Positions 19,339-28,806 of a stretch of DNA of 64,000 bases are shown here, piece after piece. A model generated the notes under the pieces. That model did not search any database, was not told the origin of the DNA, and was given only the letters and a program-made list of their open reading frames with translations. Made by a program: the position numbers and the translations under genes. Origin of the DNA: an archaeon (GTDB taxonomy: Archaea; Nanobdellota; Nanobdellia; Pacearchaeales; GW2011-AR1); assembly GCA_030605415.1 (NCBI GenBank), contig JAUWIJ010000001.1, positions 91,514-155,513 of the forward strand, in the 5' to 3' direction. How positions within the stretch are numbered: position 1 is the stretch's first letter; every line of letters starts with the position of its first letter.

Positions 19339-19562
19339 AATTAACTAAAGAATTTGGAGTATATAAAATATTTGATTAGATGTCACAATAGATAATTAAT
19401 TACTCTGTGTAAACTTATTTTTTACTTGTGGATGATAAGATTTAAAGCTTTCACTATTCTGTCTTGAACATCCTTTTCAATTAACTATATAAAACACAAA
19501 ATAATTATACTAACATGAAAAACAAAAAAGCAAGACTCAACAATCTTCCATGTTTTCCTCAG

Positions 19563-21020
19563 ATGAATTTTCGGAAAAGAGGATGGATATTAATTTTGGA
19601 AGCGACGATTGCAATTTTAATTGTGAGCGGAGCGTTGCTGGTAGTTTATTCTCAACAGGCAGACGAAGTAGTTTCACCAGAAGAATATTTTGAAAGTTTA
19701 CAGGGGCAAATACTGGCGGACGTTTCAGCAAGTAGCGATTTGCGGTTGAATGTTTTAAACGTCGAAGAGGAAAATTTTGGCGATGCCAATTTTAATATAT
19801 TAAATAATTTCATCGGCACAAAAATTCCGAGTGGGTTTGGGTATTCAATCAGAGTGTGTGAACTTAACGACACGACAGATTATTGCAGAATGGACACACC
19901 GACCTATATCGCGACGGTAGATAAAGATATTTACACCGAAGAAATTATAGTTGCCTCCGAGATAGGTGACGGAACCGACGCAATCTACAATCCCACAAAA
20001 TTAAAGTTATTCGTCTGGGAAGGCGAATCTTTCGGAACAGATTGCAACAATACCTGCTCACCAGCGGGCACGGTTTATAATTGCTCCAACGATTTATCAC
20101 AAGTCCTAAAAAGAACATGCGGAAATTTCGACGAAGACTATTGTCTGGAATGGGAAGGCGTGGCAGAAGTATTTGAAACTTGTGAAGAGGGATGGGAATG
20201 TGTCGAGGGTTTGGGAATATGCACTGAAGTTTCCGAATTTTTTAATTTGACTTGTGAAAAAACAACGGTAAGTGAAACGGGATGTGTGCATAATTTTGAT
20301 GACGAGTGTGATGAGTGGAATGGAGGAGGGGTGGAAACGGGAGGTTGTGGTTTTTTGGATTCTAAAGATGAGTATGTCTGTTATAATATTGAAACCATCG
20401 AGACAGATTGTCTCGAAGATCCAGAGTGTCCCGACGGTTATACCGAGGTAGAAAAAAGAGGTTGCAGTGTTTTCGTCGAAGAGTGCGAGGATGATTGCTC
20501 GCCGGCGGGACCAGTTTATAGTTGTAGTGGAGATGATGCGAAAATTTTAATAAGAACATGCGGGGACTTTGACGACGACGATTGTTTGGAGTGGGATGGA
20601 AATTTTAAGGTGTTTAAGGCATGTGGTGTGAAAGAGCAATGTGAAGAGGGGAATAGTGAGTGCGTGTCGACGTGGGCTGAGTTGAGTTTGGATTTTAGCT
20701 TACAGTCTATAATAGACGATGACCCATACACACGTTATATACATACGAGGACGTTCGAGGAAACTAACGGGGTTGGGGTGACCTTGACGGAGGGGCAGTT
20801 GTGTTATCAGGTAGAAGGAAGTTGTAATTCGGCTTCTGTAAACTATAGAATTGAGGGAGATGATGAACTGATAAGAACAAATGAATGGTTTAATACACTT
20901 CATGATTGGGAAAAATTTACTCTTAAATACTGGGGTACCGACGATAATGGGAATTCTGTTTATGTAGAGCAGACAGTGTGCGTAGAAAAAGGAACTTTTT
21001 TGTTTGATGTTGATTGTTGA
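19563..21020 (+). CDS. membrane-anchored Cys-rich surface protein with class III (pilin)-like signal
   Basis: RKRG|WILILEATIAILIVSG N-terminus and two ~60-aa Cys-rich repeats. ATG at 19563 preferred over 19515. Confidence 0.65.
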   Translation: MNFRKRGWILILEATIAILIVSGALLVVYSQQADEVVSPEEYFESLQGQILADVSASSDLRLNVLNVEEENFGDANFNILNNFIGTKIPSGFGYSIRVCELNDTTDYCRMDTPTYIATVDKDIYTEEIIVASEIGDGTDAIYNPTKLKLFVWEGESFGTDCNNTCSPAGTVYNCSNDLSQVLKRTCGNFDEDYCLEWEGVAEVFETCEEGWECVEGLGICTEVSEFFNLTCEKTTVSETGCVHNFDDECDEWNGGGVETGGCGFLDSKDEYVCYNIETIETDCLEDPECPDGYTEVEKRGCSVFVEECEDDCSPAGPVYSCSGDDAKILIRTCGDFDDDDCLEWDGNFKVFKACGVKEQCEEGNSECVSTWAELSLDFSLQSIIDDDPYTRYIHTRTFEETNGVGVTLTEGQLCYQVEGSCNSASVNYRIEGDDELIRTNEWFNTLHDWEKFTLKYWGTDDNGNSVYVEQTVCVEKGTFLFDVDC

Positions 21021-21141
21021 AATATCCCAAATGTTTTGTTATTTTTAAATATTTTTTGTTAGTTGTGCGACACAGCATGTTTTGAAGTTTATCAGCTTCG
21101 ATATAGGCAGATTTATAAACTTGGGCAACTCATATTTATTA

Positions 21142-21159
21142 TGAGGTGTTAGCACCTCA
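21142..21159. promoter_or_regulatory. perfect 7-bp inverted repeat (operator or leader hairpin) upstream of the GT2 cluster
   Basis: TGAGGTG-TTAG-CACCTCA, between a TTTATAAA box (about 21112-21119) and the ATG at 21187. Confidence 0.45.
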
Positions 21160-21186
21160 AGATGCTTAATTCTTGGAAAGATAAAA

Positions 21187-22125
21187 ATGAAAATACCAAA
21201 AATAAGTATCGGAATACCAATCTATAATGAAAAAGATACGCTAAAGCAAACGCTGATTTCTGTGTCTCTTGCTCTGAAAAAAATCAGCTTAAAATATGAA
21301 ATATTACTCTGTTTTAATGGAACTACTGATAATGGAATACAAGTTGCAAAAGAAATGAAAAATCATGAACCTAACATTAAAATTCTTGAAAGTGAGAATG
21401 GAAGAACTAAAGCAATGAAAAAGATAATTAATACGGCTAAAGGAGAGATGATTATTTTTTGCGATGCGGATATTATTGTAGACGAATATTGTTATTTCAA
21501 CATATTAAAAAAATTTCAAAATGAGAAAATTATAGCAGTTGTAGGTAACCCTATCCCCATAGAGAAAAAAGGAGTTTTATATCATATCTTAAATGCTCGT
21601 ATGATGAATTTTGGTTCAGAAATTTCTAGAAAACCCATTGATGGTTTCAAACATAAACCATTTGTCCATGGAAGAATTTTTATAATTAAAAGAGAATTCT
21701 TTATTAACAATTACTTATTTGAAGAAAGATTTGAAAATGCAATTAATGACGATATGTTTATAACACATTTAATAATATTGCAACATGGCAGAAAAGCAAT
21801 TACACATGAAGAGAATGCTAAAGTTAAATATTTACCTGTTCAATCCATAAATTCTTGGTGGCAAAAATGGGTTAGATTATGGGGAGATTTGGATTACCTA
21901 TACATTCAAAATCCAGAATTTAAGAAATTGAAATCCTTGATGAAAACAAAAATAGATTGGAATCTTATATCTAATAAACCCATATCATCCAGATTTTATT
22001 TTATAGCAGAAAGGTGTCTTCATTATTCAGGAAGATTTTATTTTAATATAACTAAAAAAGTTTATAGGAGGAAAAGATGTCTAAGGTTAAACGAGACAAA
22101 GAAGGAATTCCAGATAATGCAATAA
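21187..22125 (+). CDS. glycosyltransferase family 2
   Basis: IGIPIYNE, FNGTTDNG, IIFCDADI (DxD) and NDDMFI: GT-A fold motifs. Confidence 0.88.
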   Translation: MKIPKISIGIPIYNEKDTLKQTLISVSLALKKISLKYEILLCFNGTTDNGIQVAKEMKNHEPNIKILESENGRTKAMKKIINTAKGEMIIFCDADIIVDEYCYFNILKKFQNEKIIAVVGNPIPIEKKGVLYHILNARMMNFGSEISRKPIDGFKHKPFVHGRIFIIKREFFINNYLFEERFENAINDDMFITHLIILQHGRKAITHEENAKVKYLPVQSINSWWQKWVRLWGDLDYLYIQNPEFKKLKSLMKTKIDWNLISNKPISSRFYFIAERCLHYSGRFYFNITKKVYRRKRCLRLNETKKEFQIMQ

Positions 22126-23237
22126 AAATGACTGCTGGTCTTTCTTTGACAGAAAAATGCAATCTAAAATGTAAGCATTGCTACATTGGAGAGAAAGATT
22201 TATGGTTTGAAAAAGGATATAAGCCAAAAGAAATTACTATAGAACAAATAGAAAAATTAATACCAAAACTTCACCAAGTCAATGTTAAAAGAATTAATTT
22301 TGGCGGAGGGGAAGTTCCATTACATAAAGATTTTATTTTAATAGCAAAGAAATTGAATAATGCAGGTTTTGATATAGGACTAACAACCAACGGAACGACA
22401 TTCGAGATATACCGAGATTATTTACATTTATTTAATGACATTGGGGTAAGTATAGATTTTCCCGACGAAAGACATTCAAAATGGAGAGGCAGAAAAAATG
22501 TATTCAAAAGAGCGGTCAAAACATTAGAAAAACTTGTTGAAAGTAATATTAGAACTGAAATGAATACTTGTATTATGAATGTTAATTATGAAACTTTGCC
22601 TCAGTTGTACAAGCTTGCAAAAGATATTGGGGTAGATATGTGGAGGCTGAATAGGTTTCATTCATCAAAAAACGACGCACTAAGGTTTGGTGCAGATAAT
22701 TTGCCTAAAACAAAGGGATGTAGAATTAATAATAACTTGTCTTGTAGCATAGAGCAACTTAAAGAAACATTTGAATATTTGGCGAGCGTAACTCCAAGAA
22801 ATCAAAACTACGCTATCCCTGACCCACTATTTAGAACTTATGTAAATGGCAAAGGTGTTGTTAGGGGCAGTCCTTCTGGTAAAATTGCATTTAGAATTAT
22901 GTCTGATGGAGGAATAACCCCTAATGTATTCACTGATCAAATCGCAGGAAATATATTTTCAGATGAGCTTTCAGAAATAGTTCAAGGAGAAGTGTTTTCG
23001 CAATATCAAAAAAGAACTCCATCAGGCAAGTGTATAGGCTGTGCAAGTTATAATAATTGTGAAGGTGGAGATAAAACGGATTCATATTTAATTAAAGGAA
23101 ATATGAATTCTCCAGACCCGTATTGTTTTTTAGATACAAAAAAAAGAAATGACTTTAAATCAATTAAATTCGAGGATACAAAGTTTGTTCATGAAACATA
23201 TCTTGGAACAATTTATGTCCCAATTAAAAATGGTTAA
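22077..23237 (+). CDS. radical SAM protein with atypical SPASM domain
   Basis: CNLKCKHC, FGGGEVPL, TTNGT, VSIDF; C-terminal CIGCASYNNCEGGD...PDPYC. AGGAGG SD before ATG 22077. Confidence 0.9.
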   Translation: MSKVKRDKEGIPDNAIKMTAGLSLTEKCNLKCKHCYIGEKDLWFEKGYKPKEITIEQIEKLIPKLHQVNVKRINFGGGEVPLHKDFILIAKKLNNAGFDIGLTTNGTTFEIYRDYLHLFNDIGVSIDFPDERHSKWRGRKNVFKRAVKTLEKLVESNIRTEMNTCIMNVNYETLPQLYKLAKDIGVDMWRLNRFHSSKNDALRFGADNLPKTKGCRINNNLSCSIEQLKETFEYLASVTPRNQNYAIPDPLFRTYVNGKGVVRGSPSGKIAFRIMSDGGITPNVFTDQIAGNIFSDELSEIVQGEVFSQYQKRTPSGKCIGCASYNNCEGGDKTDSYLIKGNMNSPDPYCFLDTKKRNDFKSIKFEDTKFVHETYLGTIYVPIKNG

Positions 23238-23838
23238 AATAATTACTTTTGAAGGCTCAGATTATTCAGGAAAAACCGCTACGTTAAACCATTTAGCGAA
23301 AAAATTTAAAGAAGATAACAAATATTATTTTAATGAAGGAGCAGTCTATCCAACTGGGTTGTCCGCAAGGTTATCCTCAATCTCAAATCAATGTAATTCG
23401 TTTGAGAAAGAGTTTATTTATACTATGGGATATGTTTTAGATAGCGTTCAATCAGCCACAAATCATCCTCAAGATGAAAGGGTATTTTTTCAAGATAGAT
23501 ATTGGCCAAGTGTCGTTGCATATGGGAGGTTTTTTCATGATAGCAATTCTATACATAATAAGCAAGATTTCAGACCATTATTTTTATATCCTACTTCAAC
23601 AATTCTTCTTAGTTGTTCTTATCAAGAAAAGATTAATAGAAGTAATACTAGAGGGAGAAAATCTATTATAGATAAGTTTTTACTTAAAGACCCTTCAAAA
23701 TTAATTCAACTGGAAGATCAAATCGAAAAGTCTCTTGAAGGGCTTCCAAATATTTGCAGAATAGATACAACTGGAATACCAATCGAGGATGTAGCTTCAA
23801 AGATTAAACTTTATCTAAAAGATAATAAAATAATATGA
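23230..23838 (+). CDS. thymidylate (dNMP) kinase-like P-loop protein
   Basis: ITFEGSDYSGKT P-loop and FQDRYWPSVVAYG (TMPK DR motif). ATG at 23230 overlaps the upstream stop; ORF-track start 23149. Confidence 0.75.
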   Translation: MVKIITFEGSDYSGKTATLNHLAKKFKEDNKYYFNEGAVYPTGLSARLSSISNQCNSFEKEFIYTMGYVLDSVQSATNHPQDERVFFQDRYWPSVVAYGRFFHDSNSIHNKQDFRPLFLYPTSTILLSCSYQEKINRSNTRGRKSIIDKFLLKDPSKLIQLEDQIEKSLEGLPNICRIDTTGIPIEDVASKIKLYLKDNKII

Positions 23839-23875
23839 GAGAAACCTTTAATAAACAAGATAAATATAAAATCAT

Positions 23876-24346
23876 ATGGAAAAAAGAACGACAATTAGAA
23901 TTGGCGTAGTAATTTTGGATGGCTCTAGAATTCTAATTACAAAAATGCACAGGGAAAATTCAGAAGACATATATGTTTTGCCTGGCGGTGGAGTGGAACA
24001 TGGAGAAAGTTTGATTGATGCAGCTATTAGAGAAGTAAAGGAAGAAACTTGTTTAGATATTGAGGTTGAAAAAATTTTATACTTAAAAAATTTATATACT
24101 GATGAGGGACATTTTACCGAAGTGATAGTATTAGGTAAAATTATTGGTGGAAAGTTAGAAAAAGGAGTTGACCCAGAAGAAAAAGGAGTTGAAAAATTAA
24201 AAGCTGTTGAATATATCGATTTAAAGGATTTGGAAAATATAAATTTTCATCCAAGACAACTTAAAACACTTTTAAAAAAACATCATGAAGATAGCTTTAA
24301 TGGAGATGCCCAATATCTCGGTATATTCAAATATCCGGAGGATTGA
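23876..24346 (+). CDS. NUDIX hydrolase
   Basis: Nudix box GGVEHGESLIDAAIREVKEETCL. Confidence 0.92.
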   Translation: MEKRTTIRIGVVILDGSRILITKMHRENSEDIYVLPGGGVEHGESLIDAAIREVKEETCLDIEVEKILYLKNLYTDEGHFTEVIVLGKIIGGKLEKGVDPEEKGVEKLKAVEYIDLKDLENINFHPRQLKTLLKKHHEDSFNGDAQYLGIFKYPED

Positions 24347-25362
24347 TATTATTTAAAATGAAACATATAGTTACCGACAAAGAAAAATGCTTTACTTCTA
24401 CTGGAGAAAAATTACTATATCATACGGAAGAAATGAAAAAATTTCAAAATGAAGCGAAAGCGACTCCCATCGTTCTTCATATTATGCCTACAAGCGTTTG
24501 CAACCTTAAATGTGAATTTTGTTCAGTAAAAGATAGAAAAGTTTGTGAAATATTAAACCTAAAGACACAAATAATTCCCTTAATAAAAGAACTAAAAAGT
24601 AGAGGACTAAAAGCAGTTATTATTAGCGGAGGGGGAGAACCTTTACTTTATGAACATTTTGAGAAATTAATAGAATTTCTTTATAATAATAACCTCGATA
24701 TAGGACTAATTACAAATGGAACATTGTTATACAAATATGATAAAGAATTATTTGAAAAACTTACATGGATACGTGTTTCTATTAATTCAATTGAATATGG
24801 TGGGAAAGTGAATATTCCCAAATTAAGAAATCCGACTATGGGACTTAGCTATATTGTAACAAAAAAAACAACCAATCAAATGTTAAATAAAATTAAAAAT
24901 TTAGCTTTAGAAAATAATCTTGAATATGTAAGATTACTCCCAGATTGTGTACAACCACAAGATAAGATTATTGAATGGCATAAAAAAATTGAGAAAATTG
25001 TGAAGGAATTTGGCTCACCATTTTTTCATCAATACAAAGTTCCATCTTGCCCGAAAAATTGTTTTTTAGGATATTTTCACCCAGTTCTTTATTGTGATGG
25101 GAATATTTATCCTTGTGATTCTTTAGTTTTGAATGATCATGACAATCAGCAATTTAAAGAAAGTTTCATGATTTGTAATGCAAAAGATATAGGGAAAGTT
25201 TACGATAATTTAGCAAACAAGAGTTTAGTAGAAACGAAGACTCAATGTCCTAATTGTGTATTTGAAAGACAAAACAATCTTTTGGTTGATATAAAAAATA
25301 AGAAAATAAAAATTTCAAAAAAGAATGAATTAAAAGATATGAAACATATTAATTTTATATAA
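24343..25362 (+). CDS. radical SAM protein with Twitch/SPASM-like C-terminus
   Basis: CNLKCEFC, ISGGGEPLL, LITNGTLL, WIRVSIN; C-terminal CFLG...DGNIYPCD...CPNC. Confidence 0.9.
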   Translation: MILFKMKHIVTDKEKCFTSTGEKLLYHTEEMKKFQNEAKATPIVLHIMPTSVCNLKCEFCSVKDRKVCEILNLKTQIIPLIKELKSRGLKAVIISGGGEPLLYEHFEKLIEFLYNNNLDIGLITNGTLLYKYDKELFEKLTWIRVSINSIEYGGKVNIPKLRNPTMGLSYIVTKKTTNQMLNKIKNLALENNLEYVRLLPDCVQPQDKIIEWHKKIEKIVKEFGSPFFHQYKVPSCPKNCFLGYFHPVLYCDGNIYPCDSLVLNDHDNQQFKESFMICNAKDIGKVYDNLANKSLVETKTQCPNCVFERQNNLLVDIKNKKIKISKKNELKDMKHINFI

Positions 25363-26013
25363 ATGAAATCTCAAAAAATTACTGATAATTGTGAAGATTA
25401 TGATGAAGACTATTTCGAAAGAGGTTTATCCTCTGGGAAATCTGGATATGATAATTATAGATGGTTGCCGGAATTAACTATTAAGTTTGCATATAAAATA
25501 ATAAAAAAATTAAATTTGAGAGAAGGTGATAAGGTTCTTGATTATGGGTGTGCAAAGGGATTTCTTGTTAAGGCTCTTAGGATATTAGATATTGATGCGT
25601 ATGGTTGCGATATTTCTAATTATGCAATTAGAAATTCAGATATGGAAGTTAGAGAATATTGCAAACTAATAAGAAATAAAATTCCGTTTGCAGACGAGTT
25701 TAAGTGGGTTATAGCTAAGGATGTTTTTGAACATTTACATGAAAAAGAATTGGAGACTATATTAAAAAATATTTTAAAAACCAATAAGAATCTATTTGTT
25801 ATTGTTCCATTTGGAAAAAATAATAAATTTATTGTTCCAGCATATGATTTAGACATTACTCATAAGCTGGCTAAACCTTTGGATTGGTGGGAAAAGAAAT
25901 TCGAGAGCTGTGGTTGGAAGGTCGATAAATTTTCATATTTAATAGATGGAATGAAGGATAATTGGAAAAAATACAGTGAGGGGAATGGATTCTTTTTTTT
26001 GAAGAAAAGTTAA
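25363..26013 (+). CDS. class I SAM-dependent methyltransferase
   Basis: YDEDYF, VLDYGCAKG (motif I), YGCDIS, DVFEHL. Confidence 0.88.
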   Translation: MKSQKITDNCEDYDEDYFERGLSSGKSGYDNYRWLPELTIKFAYKIIKKLNLREGDKVLDYGCAKGFLVKALRILDIDAYGCDISNYAIRNSDMEVREYCKLIRNKIPFADEFKWVIAKDVFEHLHEKELETILKNILKTNKNLFVIVPFGKNNKFIVPAYDLDITHKLAKPLDWWEKKFESCGWKVDKFSYLIDGMKDNWKKYSEGNGFFFLKKS

Positions 26014-26138
26014 TTTCTCCAGAAACAGTCTAAAGTGCCAACCACCTCTGAACATATATTAAAATTAAAGTTTATAAGTTTTATTGCGATTGAATTTTTA
26101 TGTAACTCTGTTAACTATTCTACAAATCAATCAAAATC

Positions 26139-26588
26139 TTAAATACTTCCACTACTACCAGGTCCAACTGGCGCAGGTGCCGGTTCACTCGTCGCTGGCG
26201 CACTCGTCGCCGGCGCACTCGGGCTATCAGAACCACCACTACTTCGAGTAAGTCCATAAATAGCTCCACCAAGTAAAATTACACCGCCAATTGTTAAATA
26301 AGGATGTCTCTTTACCCAAGAATCCTCGCCCTTTTCCTCAGATGATTGTTCAGCTCCTTGATTTCGATTAACAGGAACTCCATTAACACTGCCCAAGCTT
26401 GCGCATCCACCCGCTGAAACCATCGAAAGTAATGCTAAACCAGCAACCCCGCCAGTGACATATTTTCCAGGTCTTGTATTTCTAACATAATTAAATAATC
26501 CACCTGCCTTGTAACCTCTGCCATCGACGTCATCCAAAACTCGCGACGTTCCATCGCTTGCCATCGTTTCTAAATATTCTTTTCTCAT
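26139..26588 (-). CDS. hypothetical membrane/lipoprotein-like protein with Pro/Ala/Ser-rich tail
   Basis: Hydrophobic segment ending AGGC (lipobox-like), a second TM helix, and an SAPAT repeat encoded by a 15-bp tandem at about 26186-26220. Confidence 0.55.
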   Translation of the reverse strand: MRKEYLETMASDGTSRVLDDVDGRGYKAGGLFNYVRNTRPGKYVTGGVAGLALLSMVSAGGCASLGSVNGVPVNRNQGAEQSSEEKGEDSWVKRHPYLTIGGVILLGGAIYGLTRSSGGSDSPSAPATSAPATSEPAPAPVGPGSSGSI

Positions 26589-26670
26589 GTCATCTACTAA
26601 TAATTTAACTATTTAAATCTTTCGGTTGTCGTATTTTTAGAGGGACGACGGGGAGGGGGAAGGATTAAAA

Positions 26671-27288
26671 CTAGACTATAATTAAATCGTGATCCATTAA
26701 GCAGAGATTCCACGCTTTCTGAAATCTACTTTTTGAAATTTTTTTATTTAGTCCTGCCTTATAGGGACCACTGTCATGATAAATTATTTCATCATTCCTA
26801 AATTCAGTTAAAATAATGTAGTGTCCAGAAAATTTATTAGGTTTTTTATTAAATACATCCCAATTAACTAAACATATAGGAATTTTTTCTTGTTGGATTT
26901 TTCTTTCAAGGGTTTCTATTGGTAGCTTATCTTTAATCGCAATTATTCCCGAAGAATTTTGGACTTCTTTGATAGATTTATTTAAAGCAATAAAATTCAT
27001 ATTTGAAGTTACTTTAGAACCATAAGCCTTTTGTGTGTAATTTTGTATATTCGGAGACTGAGCAAAAGTTAATCCCTCAGGTTTAATATAATACTCAAAA
27101 GGAACTTGTAACTGATGGAAACCATAAGCTATTTGAATTGGAAGAGTAATTTGTGGATCTTGATGTAGTGTCAAATTATCTAATTCCTCAAAAGTAAAAT
27201 TTCTATTTGGCAATCTTACTTTTAAGACAGATTTCATTGTAGCTTGAGCACATCTATGCCCATAGTTTTTATGTAAAGGGGTAATCAT
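26671..27288 (-). CDS. C39-like (papain-fold) cysteine peptidase
   Basis: Cys in GHRCAQATMKSVL, His in SGHYIIL, Asp in IYHDSG: the Cys-His-Asp order of C39-type peptidases. TAATG overlap with the upstream peptide gene. Confidence 0.75.
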   Translation of the reverse strand: MITPLHKNYGHRCAQATMKSVLKVRLPNRNFTFEELDNLTLHQDPQITLPIQIAYGFHQLQVPFEYYIKPEGLTFAQSPNIQNYTQKAYGSKVTSNMNFIALNKSIKEVQNSSGIIAIKDKLPIETLERKIQQEKIPICLVNWDVFNKKPNKFSGHYIILTEFRNDEIIYHDSGPYKAGLNKKISKSRFQKAWNLCLMDHDLIIV

Positions 27289-27626
27289 TATTTAGGCCCA
27301 AAATCTTTATGGCCTCCATAATATCTATCTCCCCATCCTCCTCCACCCGTATCGCTATAATCGCTATGTTTTGTATGATCCACATGTCTTCTTGGTGCTG
27401 ATTTAGTGCAGTCGCTATGACTACTTCTTTCAGAATAATTCTCTCCAGTATAATAATCGCTATGTTTTGTTCCACTATCACTATATGTCTTATTATCACT
27501 ATAGTTAAATATAAAACCGCCTCTCTCTTTCACAGCTCTTAGAATATGTGGATTTTTAATTTTATCAAATTCAATTTTATGTCCCATTATTTCACATTTT
27601 TTTGGTAACCCGTTTTTTTCTTTCAT
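27288..27626 (-). CDS. putative RiPP precursor peptide with [Y/H]-x-[D/E] repeats
   Basis: 112 aa; leader ends ..KNPHILRAVKERGG, followed by nine YSD/HSD/YSE/HVD/HKD motifs. GGAG SD; TAATG overlaps on both sides. Confidence 0.75.
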   Translation of the reverse strand: MKEKNGLPKKCEIMGHKIEFDKIKNPHILRAVKERGGFIFNYSDNKTYSDSGTKHSDYYTGENYSERSSHSDCTKSAPRRHVDHTKHSDYSDTGGGGWGDRYYGGHKDFGPK

Positions 27627-28723
27627 TATTTCTTGTCTCCTTTTATTTCGGCCTTTGTTAATTCTGTATGTACTTTTGATTCAATGTGCTTAAACATCAT
27701 TTTATATCCCACACAATAAGGATCTTTCCCCATTATATCTCCGCCAATTAAGGCATTATGTTGACATCCGCTATTACAAATCGGACCATACTCGCATTGT
27801 TTACATTCTGTTATTTTTTCCAATCCTCTTTCCTTGAGTTTCTTTCGTATATCTGATTCAAGTGCCTTTGCCATATCATTTTTCTCATTTACATTTCCCA
27901 TCCAATAATTTTTTAGTCCATCAAATCTTCCACAAGGATAAATGTCTCCTTGGGGTCCTACTGAAATAAAACTATCTTGACAAGATTTTGAGTAATTACA
28001 TCCATTCGGTCTGCCAGACATTAAATTTCCCATAATCTGACTAAATGGGTCCACTTCAATTGCATCATAATCATCTATCCATCTATCAAATAACGTATTC
28101 ATTGCTTTCGCATATTCTATTGGAGAGATTCCGAAGTTTGTATCTTTTGTATCAATTATATGATTTAATTTTAATCCTATTTCGTTTTTATTAAAAAATT
28201 CATAAATTTGGTCAAGGTGTGGTAAGTTATGTTTGTTAACTACAGCTATTGCACCACTTCCCACAAAAGCTTTTCTATCTTGTGCCATTTTTATTCCTCG
28301 AAAAATATCTCTAAATGCCCCATCTCCATTTGCGTAAATTCTGGTTTTGTTGCTTATATCTTCAGGTCCATCAAGACTAAATCCTAAATAAAAATCTTTT
28401 TCTTTTTCTATAAAATCCAATAATTCCTTAGATACAAGAGTTCCGTTGGTTTGTATGCTGTTTGAGAAACCCTTATTTTGTTTTTTAAACTCATGCGAGA
28501 GTAAAGATATTTCTTTGAAAAAATTTAATCCTGCCAATAATGGCTCTCCTCCATGCCATATAAAATGCGCTTCTTCTTTATTTGAATTTTCTACAACTTG
28601 GTCTATTGTATTATGAAGAGTCTCTTTTGACATCATACCTTTCTCTGCACCTTTTTCTATGTAGCAATATTTACATCTAAGGTTACAATTATGAGTAGGT
28701 TTTACAATTGCTGTTAATCCCAT
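27626..28723 (-). CDS. radical SAM/SPASM peptide maturase (anSME-like subfamily)
   Basis: IVKPTHNCNLRCKYCY, WHGGEPLL, IQTNGTL, SLDGP; SPASM CNYSKSC...GDIYPC...CKQCEYGPICNSGC...DPYC (8 Cys). Confidence 0.92.
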   Translation of the reverse strand: MGLTAIVKPTHNCNLRCKYCYIEKGAEKGMMSKETLHNTIDQVVENSNKEEAHFIWHGGEPLLAGLNFFKEISLLSHEFKKQNKGFSNSIQTNGTLVSKELLDFIEKEKDFYLGFSLDGPEDISNKTRIYANGDGAFRDIFRGIKMAQDRKAFVGSGAIAVVNKHNLPHLDQIYEFFNKNEIGLKLNHIIDTKDTNFGISPIEYAKAMNTLFDRWIDDYDAIEVDPFSQIMGNLMSGRPNGCNYSKSCQDSFISVGPQGDIYPCGRFDGLKNYWMGNVNEKNDMAKALESDIRKKLKERGLEKITECKQCEYGPICNSGCQHNALIGGDIMGKDPYCVGYKMMFKHIESKVHTELTKAEIKGDKK

Positions 28724-28806
28724 TGTAACTTTATAATTACGACAGACTATATAAGTTTTACGGTGATTTGCGTTAATATTAAATACTCTTTGAGATAAAT
28801 ATTTTT

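What the first reader, a model, noticed from the sequence alone, without database searches (positions are those of the whole stretch)
21187..26013. Six-gene nucleotide/sugar-tailoring cluster (GT2, 2 radical SAM, dNMP kinase, NUDIX, methyltransferase)
Seen: six co-oriented genes, mostly overlapping or abutting (22077/22125, 23230/23237, 24343/24346, 25362/25363), visibly more AT-rich than the flanking genes and behind one promoter with an inverted repeat. Established: dNMP kinases and NUDIX hydrolases act on nucleotides, and combinations of nucleotide kinase, NUDIX, glycosyltransferase, radical SAM and methyltransferase occur in modified-base and nucleoside-product pathways. Inference: a horizontally acquired pathway making a modified nucleotide, either for DNA/RNA hypermodification (possibly anti-restriction or anti-phage) or for a nucleoside-type small molecule. 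This is unexpected in a metabolically minimal archaeon. It lies about 650 bp from the RiPP operon, forming a three-radical-SAM biosynthetic island.
Basis: partly seen in the sequence, partly recalled or inferred. Interest (0 to 1): 0.72.

Follow-up and report, generated by a model that had tools for sequence, protein, structure and literature searches.

The report
Mobile radical-SAM nucleotide-sugar tailoring operon
A tiny symbiotic-type (DPANN) archaeon carries a discrete, horizontally moving 4.9-kb six-gene operon (sugar transferase, two iron-sulfur radical enzymes, a nucleotide kinase copy with an altered base pocket, a nucleotide pyrophosphatase and a methyltransferase) that recurs as a block in a few related archaea, matches no described pathway, and most likely makes an unusual nucleotide-linked sugar or glycosylated nucleotide.

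Summary
The six genes are real, co-oriented and tightly packed at the stated coordinates, and their domain calls are right. The block is AT-rich: 29.3% GC against 35.3% for the genome, in the lowest ~2% of 4.8-kb windows.

Comparison with a close relative shows a discrete unit, window ~21093-26016, with its own promoter/leader and unrelated flanks. Three congeners have an empty site: GluRS-p132-p556 are adjacent there. So the cassette lies in a ~9.4-kb strain-specific island.

GT2, rSAM/SPASM, the Tmk-like kinase and NUDIX are syntenic in roughly ten other DPANN loci. The cassette-type rSAM, kinase and GT2 occur only in the same 3 of 401 genomes sampled from the phylum.

The kinase is a paralog of the genome's own Tmk and has lost the thymine-contacting residues. 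The second rSAM and the methyltransferase are a swappable two-gene module. Elsewhere that module sits in CPR/DPANN glycan or NDP-sugar loci and in two marine myophages.

The neighbouring RiPP operon is not associated with the cassette in any other locus.

Best reading: a cytoplasmic pathway that tailors a nucleotide or nucleotide-sugar. The product and its role are unknown. No literature description was found.

The parts
21093..21186 (+). Cassette-borne promoter/leader: TATA-like TTTATAAA (21113-21120) and inverted repeat TGAGGTG-ttag-CACCTCA (21142-21159). This is the left edge of the mobile unit.
   Evidence: Read. Homology to L116 begins abruptly at ~21093 and covers the TATA-like box and the inverted repeat. 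No Rfam match. Not conserved in distant cassettes. Hairpin fold z = -1.7, which is weak.
21187..22125 (+). Soluble GT2 (GT-A) glycosyltransferase, 312 aa. It has DxD (D93/D95), DD (188/189), HGR, and a Trp-rich SWWxKWxRxW segment that resembles the (Q/R)xxRW motif.
   Evidence: PF00535 at 76 bits and Glyco_transf_21 at 30.7 bits. Family invariants in A3. AF2 pLDDT 80, with Foldseek best hits hyaluronan synthases (TMq ~0.6), RmlT, PcManGT, GtrB, TarP and the nucleoside GT2 AvpGT (TMq 0.53). No TM segment. Orthologs above 500 bits occur only in G000, G138 and G210.
22077..23237 (+). rSAM1, the signature radical SAM enzyme with a C-terminal auxiliary-cluster (SPASM/twitch-type) domain, 386 aa. 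An alternative start at 22128 is possible.
   Evidence: PF04055 at 95 bits. Invariants are CX3CX2C, GGGE, C319/C322/C328/C350 and a conserved tail FVHExYLGTIYVP. AF2 pLDDT 90, with Foldseek hits SuiB/anSME/SkfB/BlsE first and viperin/MoaA next. The family is small and restricted to DPANN.
23230..23838 (+). Tmk-fold P-loop kinase paralog, 202 aa, with a remodelled acceptor-base pocket.
   Evidence: PF02223 at 37 bits, above the Pfam cut-off; TIGR00041 at 46 bits, below its 83-bit cut-off. The alignment to S. aureus Tmk keeps the P-loop, E8, D89-R90, the lid Args and the stacking aromatic, but the 'AYQ' Gln is an invariant Gly99 and the base-contact Arg is lost. The genome has a separate Tmk that keeps the Gln. 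The cassette type occurs only next to rSAM1.
23876..24346 (+). Small MutT/NUDX1-type NUDIX hydrolase, 156 aa, with an intact Nudix box (G38x5E44x7R52E53VxE56E57).
   Evidence: PF00293 at 55 bits. The best PDB matches are plant NUDX1, an 8-oxo-dGTP and geranyl-PP hydrolase, at 41 bits. The Nudix box was read from the translation. Orthologs at 43-92% identity occur in the other cassettes.
24358..25362 (+). rSAM2, a radical SAM enzyme of 334 aa (the ORF opens at TTG 24343). It has four invariant C-terminal Cys, which implies an auxiliary cluster. It is the first half of a swappable rSAM+MTase module.
   Evidence: PF04055 at 57 bits. 831 homologs, mostly in CPR and DPANN. Invariants are C48/52/55 plus C235/C253/C297/C300. 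It is always followed by the MTase and usually lies in glycan or NDP-sugar loci. It also occurs in two myophages.
25363..26013 (+). Class I SAM methyltransferase, 216 aa, the obligate partner of rSAM2. The right edge of the mobile unit is at ~26016.
   Evidence: Methyltransf_23/25/11. phrog_27380 at E = 9e-40. 54-78% identical partners lie directly after rSAM2 homologs. Homology to L116/L117 ends 3 nt after the stop codon.
19339..28806 (.). A ~9.4-kb strain-specific insertion island holding the cassette, a 501-aa Cys-rich secreted protein, a 149-aa high-GC ORF and the RiPP operon.
   Evidence: In congeners G324, G375 and G085, the genes p132 (w18940-19338) and p556 (w28807-30477) are only 54-120 bp apart. 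GC is a mosaic of 41%, 29%, 47% and 29-32%. No flanking direct repeats were found.

Best explanation
The six genes are one discrete, horizontally mobile operon encoding a cytoplasmic small-molecule pathway that works on a nucleotide scaffold. Only the gene content and linkage are shown; every biochemical step below is inferred.

The MutT-type NUDIX and the Tmk-fold kinase set the phosphorylation state of a non-canonical nucleotide. The NUDIX trims a tri- or diphosphate form to the monophosphate. The kinase, whose thymine-edge contacts are replaced, re-phosphorylates the modified monophosphate.

rSAM1, the family-defining SPASM/twitch enzyme, performs the committing radical C-H chemistry on the nucleotide or its attached sugar. 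The rSAM2+methyltransferase pair is borrowed from NDP-sugar/glycan loci and adds a second radical step plus a methyl group on a sugar moiety.

The soluble GT2 joins sugar and nucleotide. Either it uses the tailored NDP-sugar as donor, or it glycosylates the nucleoside, as the GT2 enzymes NucGT and AvpGT do.

The product is a modified nucleotide-sugar or glycosylated nucleotide. Its biological role (antiviral or antimetabolite, surface sugar donor, or nucleic-acid building block) is unresolved.
For: Discrete unit: homology with L116/L117 runs from ~21093 to ~26016 and the flanks are unrelated. Three congeners show an empty site.

Conserved linkage: GT2-rSAM1-Tmk-(second rSAM)-NUDIX, with or without an MTase, occurs in L007, L008, L009, L010, L025, L026, L116, L117 and L132-L137.

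Strict co-occurrence: the cassette-type rSAM1, kinase and GT2 are found only in G000, G138 and G210 among 401 phylum genomes.

Nucleotide link: the kinase is a second Tmk-fold gene alongside a canonical Tmk. It keeps the phosphoryl-transfer, sugar-contact and stacking residues but has lost the base-edge contacts. The NUDIX is of the MutT class with an intact box. In more distant rSAM1-type operons the partners are a Tmk-like kinase, HD or NUDIX, a 5'-deoxyadenosine/guanine-deaminase-like amidohydrolase and PfkB.

Sugar link: the rSAM2+MTase pair lies among NTP_transferase, 4,6-dehydratase/epimerase, DegT, Wzx, Wzy and GT genes and in phage heptose/GT regions.

Localisation: all six proteins lack TM segments.

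Precedent: soluble GT2s of ~300 aa that glucosylate nucleosides are described in PMC11959488, and one of them is a structural hit.
Against: No substrate or product is known, and every enzymatic step is inferred from family membership and gene neighbourhood. Both rSAMs give only generic superfamily-level matches. The cassette has no nucleotidyltransferase or dehydratase that would make an NDP-sugar. The GT2's best structural matches are glycan- or lipid-directed enzymes, not nucleoside GTs. The closest non-cassette relatives of the kinase and NUDIX sit with a polyprenyl-synthetase-like gene, so the duo's substrate might be a prenyl (di)phosphate. Transcript evidence for a single operon could not be obtained.
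Confidence: 0.45

Rival explanations
1. An ordinary surface-glycan supply module. The nucleotide is only the carrier of a sugar that is radical-tailored and methylated, then transferred by the GT2 to a lipid carrier or glycan that ends on S-layer or pilin proteins via AglB. The kinase and NUDIX merely recycle the released NDP/NMP in a nucleotide-poor symbiont.
For: The rSAM2+MTase pair is embedded in glycan or NDP-sugar loci in 7 of 8 sampled loci and in two phage LPS-type regions. The GT2's best structural matches are HAS, RmlT, PcManGT, GtrB and TarP. The genome encodes STT3/AglB. The island neighbours are secreted or membrane proteins. A NUDIX in a glycan locus has a precedent from my own knowledge: WcaH/Gmm of the colanic acid cluster.
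Against: The cassette has no flippase, initiating phosphoglycosyl transferase, nucleotidyltransferase or dehydratase, and none is nearby. All six proteins are soluble. Most cassettes use a different second rSAM (rSAM3) and sit among housekeeping genes, not glycan loci. Distant relatives keep the kinase and two rSAMs but lack any GT. The NUDIX is of the MutT/NUDX1 type, not the NDP-sugar type. The kinase's altered base pocket is unexplained by simple recycling.
Confidence: 0.25
2. A nucleic-acid hypermodification pathway with phage-T4-like logic. The NUDIX converts a canonical (d)NTP to the (d)NMP, the rSAMs and MTase modify the base or sugar at monophosphate level, the dedicated kinase re-phosphorylates the product for incorporation by the polymerase, and the GT2 glycosylates it, so that DNA or RNA is protected from nucleases.
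For: The gene logic parallels T4 dCTPase, dCMP hydroxymethylase, dNMP kinase and glucosyltransferases (my own knowledge). The kinase pocket is opened at the base edge by the Gln-to-Gly change. The cassette is mobile and patchy, like defence or anti-defence cargo.
Against: There is no thymidylate-synthase-like hydroxymethylase, DNA glycosylase/transglycosylase, polymerase or DNA-binding gene in any cassette version. rSAM1 and the kinase are absent from IMG/VR viral contigs. The GT2 is unrelated to known DNA glucosyltransferase families as far as was tested. The rSAM2+MTase module is sugar-pathway associated.
Confidence: 0.1
3. A prenyl-phosphate pathway. The NUDX1-like NUDIX and the Tmk-fold kinase interconvert a polyprenyl or isoprenyl mono- and diphosphate. 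The GT2 loads a sugar onto the polyprenyl phosphate, and the rSAMs and MTase tailor the lipid-linked sugar or the isoprenoid.
For: The closest non-cassette relatives of the kinase (49-59% identity) sit in tight operons of small rSAM, NUDIX, polyprenyl-synthetase-like protein (DDYYD motif kept) and kinase, with or without a B12-rSAM or MTase, in at least 8 contigs. The NUDIX's best PDB matches include geranyl-diphosphate hydrolases. Structural hits for the GT2 include the polyprenyl-phosphate GTs GtrB and PcManGT. Radical SAM enzymes are common in archaeal lipid tailoring, for example GDGT-MAS, which was hit.
Against: The kinase keeps the Tmk residues that contact the deoxyribose and the stacking aromatic, which fits a nucleotide better than a lipid. 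The GT2 has no TM helices, unlike GtrB, ArnC and DPMS. Other relatives carry nucleoside-type partners such as a deaminase-like amidohydrolase, PfkB and HD. No P-loop Tmk-fold prenyl-phosphate kinase is known to me.
Confidence: 0.1

Closest known systems
Viperin / prokaryotic viperins (pVips) with an adjacent Tmk/CMPK2-type NMP kinase
   Same: A radical SAM enzyme is genetically linked to a Tmk-family nucleotide kinase. Viperin acts on nucleoside triphosphates. Both cassette rSAMs hit pVip models weakly (PADLOC 86 and 67 bits; NF038283 78 and 54 bits), and viperin is a structural neighbour of rSAM1 (TMt 0.70-0.79). Distribution is patchy and accessory.
   Different: Scores are far below the pVip cut-off of 180 bits. 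rSAM1 and rSAM2 carry auxiliary-cluster Cys motifs that viperin lacks. The cassette adds a GT2, a NUDIX, a second rSAM and an MTase.
Tunicamycin biosynthetic cluster (TunB radical SAM, TunM methyltransferase-like, TunN NUDIX, TunD glycosyltransferase); recalled from my own knowledge, not compared by sequence here
   Same: It has the same four enzyme classes acting on a uridine or UDP-sugar scaffold, with a radical SAM paired with a class I MTase-like protein.
   Different: The cassette lacks the TunA/TunF sugar dehydratase/epimerase, TunC acyltransferase, TunE deacetylase and the transporter genes. It has a Tmk-like kinase and a second SPASM-type rSAM instead. No sequence comparison with Tun proteins was possible with these tools.
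Nucleoside-specific GT2 glycosyltransferases NucGT/ScaGT/AvpGT (PMC11959488; PDB 9JN3)
   Same: They are soluble GT2 enzymes of about 300 aa that glycosylate a nucleoside. AvpGT is a significant structural match to the cassette GT2 (E = 1.2e-10, TMq 0.53).
   Different: It is only rank 39 among the fold hits. Hyaluronan synthase, RmlT and GtrB-type enzymes match as well or better, and sequence identity is ~15%. The acceptor of the cassette GT2 is untested.
Radical SAM tailoring of nucleoside or nucleotide sugars: BlsE (cytosylglucuronate decarboxylase, PDB 7VOB), and DesII/AprD4-type enzymes
   Same: BlsE is among the best sequence and structure matches of rSAM1 (64 bits with the profile; Foldseek rank 2). 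The rSAM2 module sits in NDP-sugar loci.
   Different: The matches cover the generic rSAM core. TIGR04466 (BlsE) and the other equivalog models score far below their cut-offs. There is no BlsD/BlsM-type partner.
Phage T4 hydroxymethyl-dC pathway (dCTPase, dCMP hydroxymethylase, dNMP kinase gp1, alpha/beta-glucosyltransferases)
   Same: It follows the same logic: an NTP pyrophosphatase, modification at the NMP level, a dedicated NMP kinase, then a glycosyltransferase.
   Different: The enzyme families differ at every step. There is no thymidylate-synthase-like enzyme, the cassette is cellular rather than viral, and no evidence for modified DNA exists.

Membership tests
Prokaryotic viperin (pVip, NF038283) | Whole-protein score at or above the curated cut-off (180 bits) of the viperin equivalog model | tested here: not met
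   rSAM1 scores 77.7 bits and rSAM2 scores 53.6 bits. The PADLOC pVip models give 86 and 67 bits with partial coverage.
Prokaryotic viperin (pVip, NF038283) | A single [4Fe-4S] radical SAM core without an auxiliary cluster, plus a C-terminal NTP-binding extension | tested here: not met
   rSAM1 has invariant C319/C322/C328/C350 and rSAM2 has invariant C235/C253/C297/C300. The best fold matches for rSAM1 are SPASM/twitch enzymes.
dTMP kinase (TIGR00041 equivalog) | Score at or above the 83.25-bit cut-off, and the thymine-recognising residues (the Arg after the stacking Phe; the Gln of the AYQ motif) | tested here: not met
   The score is 46 bits. The Gln is replaced by an invariant Gly99 and the Arg is lost. 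The genome's own Tmk scores 76 bits against Pfam and keeps the Gln.
Thymidylate_kin fold family (PF02223) | Pfam gathering score, P-loop GxxGxGK(S/T), DR(Y/H) motif and lid arginines | tested here: met
   37.4 bits against a cut-off of 27. G9...G14 K15, D89 R90 Y91, R137 and R141 are invariant or nearly so.
SPASM/twitch radical SAM enzymes | CX3CX2C core plus a C-terminal Cys-rich auxiliary-cluster domain | tested here: met
   The core motif and four invariant C-terminal Cys are present in both rSAM families. Pfam SPASM is below cut-off for the window protein (17.7 versus 21.5), but homologs carry PF13186. Foldseek hits to SuiB and anSME have TMq 0.60-0.65.
GT2 (GT-A inverting glycosyltransferases, PF00535) | Pfam gathering score, a DxD metal/nucleotide-sugar motif and the GT-A fold | tested here: met
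   76.4 bits against a cut-off of 23.3. D93-x-D95 is invariant. The AF2 model matches GT-A enzymes at E ~1e-11.
NUDIX hydrolases (PF00293), MutT-like subclass | Nudix box GX5EX7REUXEEXGU with the catalytic Glu residues | tested here: met
   55 bits. The box reads G38-x5-E44-x7-R52 E53 V x E56 E57 x C L, taken; only the final Gly is replaced by Cys. The best PDB relatives are NUDX1 and MutT-type enzymes. Substrate not tested.
Surface-glycan (S-layer/LPS-type) biosynthesis locus | Presence of a flippase or polymerase, an initiating phosphoglycosyl transferase and NDP-sugar synthesis genes in the locus | tested here: not met
   The cassette, its island and the other type I cassettes have none of these. 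Such genes do surround the rSAM2+MTase pair in CPR/DPANN loci.
Tunicamycin-type nucleoside antibiotic cluster | TunA/TunF NDP-sugar dehydratase/epimerase, TunB, TunC, TunD, TunE and TunH | not testable with these tools
   No Tun protein sequences or models were available. By domain content, the cassette lacks the epimerase/dehydratase, acyltransferase and deacetylase.
T4-type DNA hypermodification pathway | A base-modifying thymidylate-synthase-like enzyme, and modified bases actually present in DNA | tested here: not met
   No such domain is found in any cassette version. The DNA modification state itself is not testable here.

The most novel reading that the evidence does not exclude
DPANN archaea exchange a mobile pathway that makes a non-canonical nucleotide by two auxiliary-cluster radical SAM enzymes at the monophosphate or nucleotide-sugar level. 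A dedicated Tmk-fold kinase with an opened base pocket re-activates it, and a soluble GT2 glycosylates it. The product acts either as a viperin-like antiviral or anti-host chain terminator, or as a building block of hypermodified cellular DNA or RNA. This would be a new class of nucleotide-based conflict system. The second-rSAM+MTase slot is swappable, so different lineages would make different products.
Probability: 0.15. Interest if true: 0.85.

Novelty: new variant of a known kind. Interest (0 to 1): 0.6.

Why it matters
DPANN archaea have tiny genomes and depend on hosts for nucleotides. A 4.9-kb accessory operon that spends two Fe-S radical enzymes, an extra nucleotide kinase and a pyrophosphatase on one metabolite therefore implies a product of real selective value.

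The signature rSAM family has no characterised member. The kinase is a natural example of a Tmk fold retargeted away from thymine. The cassette also shows modular evolution, with two unrelated rSAM+MTase pairs filling the same slot, and one of those pairs is shared with CPR glycan loci and marine phages.

Identifying the product could reveal a new nucleotide or nucleotide-sugar chemistry. It could also clarify how episymbiotic archaea defend themselves or decorate their surface. Related rSAM/Tmk-like/NUDIX-or-HD operons (types II and III here) appear to form a wider uncharacterised family in ultra-small archaea.

Tried and rejected
1. A housekeeping role for the kinase was rejected. A better-scoring Tmk lies on contig 1 and keeps the canonical Gln.

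2. A functional 'three-rSAM island' with the RiPP operon was rejected. No RiPP-operon gene lies near any of 22 other cassette loci, including the 80-93% identical L116/L117. The adjacency reflects a shared insertion hotspot.

3. A viral origin of the whole cassette was rejected. rSAM1 and the kinase are absent from IMG/VR. Only rSAM2+MTase has phage copies.

4. A riboswitch or other known RNA in the leader was not found. There is no Rfam hit at E <= 1, the leader is not conserved beyond the closest relative, and the hairpin is only marginally more stable than shuffles.

5. att-like repeats or an integrase bounding the island were not found.

6. Heme/Ahb-NirJ identity of rSAM1 was rejected. The nearest non-DPANN relatives are NirJ/AhbC-like, but rSAM1 scores 114 bits or less against cut-offs of 500-650. 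A tandem AsnC/NirDL-like neighbour occurs only in some relatives.

7. rSAM2 and rSAM3, and the two MTases, are not orthologs. They share only superfamily-level similarity.

8. Literature searches for the gene combination found nothing (searches gave nothing specific).

10. Codon-usage deviation as a sign of horizontal transfer was not seen. Only GC is low.

Full report
OBSERVATION. The GT2 is at 21187-22125 and rSAM1 at 22077-23237, overlapping the GT2 by 49 nt. The kinase runs from 23230 (the ORF opens at 23149, but homologs of 199-207 aa support 23230) to 23838. The NUDIX is at 23876-24346. rSAM2 is at 24343/24358-25362; homologs of 330-334 aa, including the database copy of this protein, start at the ATG at 24358. 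The methyltransferase is at 25363-26013.

Pfam, NCBIfam, PHROGs and PADLOC confirm the six domain classes. No NCBIfam equivalog cut-off is reached by any of the six, so only superfamily or family-level identities are established.

The cassette is AT-rich. Its GC is 29.3%, against 35.3% for the 888-kb genome, which places it in the 1.8th percentile of 4.8-kb windows. Its immediate neighbours are 41% and 47% GC. Codon usage is unremarkable.

A TATA-like box (21113-21120) and a perfect 7-bp inverted repeat (21142-21159) precede the GT2.

THE CASSETTE IS A DISCRETE MOBILE UNIT. A metagenomic contig, L116, carries the same six genes in the same order at 80-93% protein identity. At the DNA level, homology begins abruptly at window ~21093, so it includes the TATA-like box and the inverted repeat. 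It ends 3 nt after the methyltransferase stop at ~26016. Beyond both points the sequences are unrelated, and the downstream genes of L117 differ from those in the window.

Three congeneric genomes lack the cassette. In them, GluRS, p132 and p556 are adjacent, with only 54-120 bp where the window genome has ~9.4 kb (19339-28806). That island also holds a 501-aa Cys-rich secreted protein, a 149-aa ORF of 47% GC, and the RiPP operon that earlier agents studied. Its GC mosaic and the absence of bounding repeats suggest stepwise accretion at a hotspot.

The RiPP operon is not found beside any of 22 other cassette-type loci, including L116 and L117. The 'three-radical-SAM island' is therefore a physical coincidence of this genome, not a conserved functional unit.

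SYNTENY AND DISTRIBUTION. The rSAM1 family is small: about 20 close homologs among 5.8 billion proteins. It is confined to records titled Nanoarchaeia, Pacearchaeota, Woesearchaeota or 'archaeon'. The next relatives, at 31% identity or less, are NirJ/AhbC-like enzymes.

In L007, L008, L009, L025, L026 and L132-L137 the order is GT2, rSAM1, Tmk-like kinase, a 288-294-aa rSAM/SPASM (rSAM3), and NUDIX, often with a methyltransferase (MTb). In the window, L010, L116 and L117, the rSAM3(+MTb) slot is filled instead by rSAM2 plus its methyltransferase. rSAM2 and rSAM3, and the two methyltransferases, share only superfamily-level similarity. This is a module swap, not divergence.

Across 401 genomes of the phylum, rSAM1 relatives at E <= 1e-30 occur in 10. 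They occur in none of five congeners and in none of the other same-family genomes listed. The cassette-type kinase (>250 bits) and the cassette-type GT2 (>500 bits) occur in exactly three genomes, G000, G138 and G210, which belong to three different families, and in each case they lie next to rSAM1. The cassettes sit among housekeeping genes such as EF-1alpha, ribosomal proteins, IF5A and RuBisCO, not in glycan loci.

WHAT THE PARTS SAY.

Kinase. The genome has a separate Tmk that scores higher against Pfam (76 versus 37.5 bits) and retains the canonical ...DRY...GHQG motif. The cassette family keeps the P-loop, Glu8, Asp89-Arg90, the lid arginines and the stacking aromatic residue. However, the Gln of the 'AYQ' motif that reads the thymine edge is an invariant Gly, and the Arg that follows the stacking residue is lost. 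I infer a nucleotide-type acceptor with a different or bulkier base. This rests on a profile alignment only.

NUDIX. The Nudix box is intact (sequence). The nearest solved relatives are small MutT/NUDX1-type enzymes, which act on (d)NTPs and also on geranyl diphosphate.

rSAM1. It has CX3CX2C, GGGE, four invariant C-terminal Cys and a conserved C-terminal tail. A confident model (pLDDT 90) resembles SuiB, anSME, SkfB and BlsE, and then viperin and MoaA. This is a generic SPASM/twitch fold that does not reveal a substrate.

rSAM2 and its methyltransferase. rSAM2 has 831 homologs, mainly in CPR bacteria and DPANN archaea. In all eight non-phage loci sampled, the rSAM is followed directly by the ~210-240-aa methyltransferase. 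In seven of those loci the pair is surrounded by STT3, Wzx or Wzy, Bac_transf or Glycos_transf_4, GT1/GT2/GT4, NTP_transferase, 4,6-dehydratase/epimerases or DegT. The pair is also adjacent in Pelagibacter phage HTVC008M and in a Synechococcus myophage, next to heptose-pathway, glycosyltransferase, carbamoyltransferase and UDP-glucose-dehydrogenase genes. Radical SAM cassettes in the variable host-recognition/LPS region of pelagimyophages are noted in PMC7029224. rSAM2 also has four invariant C-terminal Cys. This module is therefore a sugar or NDP-sugar tailoring unit by association.

GT2. It is soluble, with DxD, DD, HGR and a Trp-rich SWWxKWxRxW motif. Its model (pLDDT 80) matches hyaluronan synthases best (TMq ~0.6), followed by RmlT, PcManGT, GtrB and TarP. 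It also matches the nucleoside-specific GT2 AvpGT (TMq 0.53). According to PMC11959488, AvpGT, NucGT and ScaGT are GT2 enzymes that glycosylate nucleosides. The acceptor class of the cassette GT2 is therefore open.

WIDER FAMILY. More distant rSAM1-type genes (~40% identity) form a 'type II' operon of (HD)-rSAM1'-rSAM/SPASM-Tmk-like. It lacks a GT2 and often has a divergent tandem AsnC-like gene. Variants carry a 5'-deoxyadenosine/guanine-deaminase-like amidohydrolase, B12-rSAMs, PfkB or NUDIX.

The closest non-cassette relatives of the kinase (49-59% identity) form a 'type III' operon of small rSAM, NUDIX, a polyprenyl-synthetase-like protein and the kinase, with or without a B12-rSAM or MTase, in at least eight contigs.

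Second-tier relatives of the GT2 (128-169 bits), one of them in a congener, sit in a module of GT2, GT4, a 288-aa protein and an MTase, with a related NUDIX and an HAD phosphatase nearby.

Earlier notes of this scan describe type II-like and other rSAM/kinase/NUDIX/GT2 cassettes in other CPR and DPANN genomes. I treat those notes as leads. They agree with what I found independently, but they are not independent evidence.

INTERPRETATION. The invariant theme across types I to III is radical SAM enzymes, a Tmk-fold kinase and a nucleotide (pyro)phosphohydrolase (NUDIX or HD). Together with the retained sugar and phosphate contacts of the kinase, this favours a nucleotide scaffold. In this window the slot-filling rSAM2+MTase pair and the GT2 add a sugar dimension.

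I therefore commit to a cytoplasmic pathway that produces a radical-tailored, methylated nucleotide-sugar or glycosylated nucleotide, with the NUDIX and kinase gating the phosphorylation state (confidence 0.45). What is shown is the gene content, the linkage, the mobility, the paralogy of the kinase and its altered motifs, and the sugar-locus association of rSAM2+MTase. What is inferred is every substrate, the order of steps and the product.

The rivals are as follows.
- An ordinary surface-glycan donor pathway (0.25). It is favoured by the rSAM2+MTase contexts and the GT2 fold matches. It is disfavoured by the lack of any membrane, flippase, priming or NDP-sugar-synthesis gene, and by the housekeeping contexts of the other cassettes.
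- T4-like nucleic-acid hypermodification (0.10). The logic fits, but there is no base-modifying or DNA-associated gene and no viral copy.
- A prenyl-phosphate pathway (0.10). It is suggested by type III and the NUDX1 similarity, and opposed by the kinase's retained nucleotide-contact residues and by the soluble GT2.

COMPARISON WITH KNOWN SYSTEMS. The closest analogies are pVip plus an NMP kinase, the tunicamycin cluster (rSAM, MTase-like, NUDIX and GT on a uridine/UDP-sugar scaffold; from my own knowledge and untested here), the nucleoside GT2s of nucleocidin and tubercidin producers, BlsE-type nucleoside-sugar rSAMs, and the T4 hmC pathway. Membership fails for pVip and for the dTMP kinase equivalog. 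It is met only at the superfamily level for GT2, NUDIX, the Tmk fold and SPASM/twitch rSAM. No paper in the searchable library holds the gene combination.

VERDICT. Horizontal acquisition, synteny and a nucleotide link are supported. The glycan-locus origin of two genes and the non-conserved RiPP adjacency weaken the specific 'hypermodification island' picture. The cassette is an undescribed variant of nucleotide or nucleotide-sugar tailoring clusters, built around an uncharacterised rSAM family. Its function needs experiment.

Noticed in passing
window 19339-28806: A ~9.4-kb strain-specific island inserted between p132 and p556. Three congeners have these two genes 54-120 bp apart. Its GC is a mosaic (41/29/47/29-32%) and no bounding repeats or integrase were found.
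   Followed up: yes
window 19515-21020: A 501-aa Cys-rich protein with an N-terminal hydrophobic, pilin-like signal (ILILEATIAILIVSGALLV). It contains an internal duplication 441 nt apart (20107-20158 and 20548-20599, 81% identity) encoding a repeated RTCG(N/D)FD(E/D)D(Y/D)CLEW(E/D)G motif. No Pfam hit. GC is 41%, well above the genome mean.
   Followed up: partly
window 26139-26588 (-): A 149-aa ORF with 47% GC (99.9th percentile of genes). It has hydrophobic segments and a Ser/Pro/Ala-rich tail encoded partly by three 15-nt tandem units (26179-26223). It looks like foreign cargo lying between the cassette and the RiPP operon.
   Followed up: no
L118, L120, L123, L125-L128, L131 (e.g. L125:203-2963): 'Type III' operon: a small radical SAM (234 aa), a NUDIX (150 aa), a polyprenyl-synthetase-like protein (335-342 aa, DDYYD motif kept, second Asp-rich motif degenerate) and a Tmk-like kinase (203 aa), with or without a B12-binding rSAM or MTase. 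These kinases are the closest non-cassette relatives of the window's kinase.
   Followed up: partly
L027-L031, L037, L038, L040: 'Type II' operon: (HD)-rSAM1'-rSAM/SPASM-Tmk-like without a GT2, often with a divergent tandem AsnC/NirDL-like gene of 307-338 aa. Variants carry a 5'-deoxyadenosine/guanine-deaminase-like amidohydrolase, B12-rSAMs, PfkB or NUDIX.
   Followed up: partly
L034 (KC465899.1 126811-128893); L035 (MT408532.1 167225-168956): The rSAM2+methyltransferase pair is present and adjacent in Pelagibacter phage HTVC008M and Synechococcus phage SynMITS9220M01. It lies next to carbamoyltransferase/UDP-glucose dehydrogenase genes in the first and heptose-pathway/glycosyltransferase genes in the second. 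The rSAM genes are annotated as hypothetical in both records.
   Followed up: partly
L163 (G085:C5), L164, L166, L167: Second-tier relatives of the cassette GT2 form another recurring module of GT2, GT4, an unknown 288-aa protein and a methyltransferase, with a related NUDIX and an HAD phosphatase nearby. One copy is in a congener that lacks the cassette.
   Followed up: partly
L117:3668-4302: Immediately downstream of the cassette in the closest relative is a pair of small overlapping ORFs (95 and 116 aa) that looks like a toxin-antitoxin pair. No family search was run on them.
   Followed up: no
window 26073-26091 and 28750-28768: A 19-nt motif, TATAAGTTTTA(T/C)(T/G)G(C/T)GATT, occurs in both intergenic regions that flank the 149-aa ORF/RiPP block. 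It may be a shared promoter element or a remnant of an insertion boundary.
   Followed up: no
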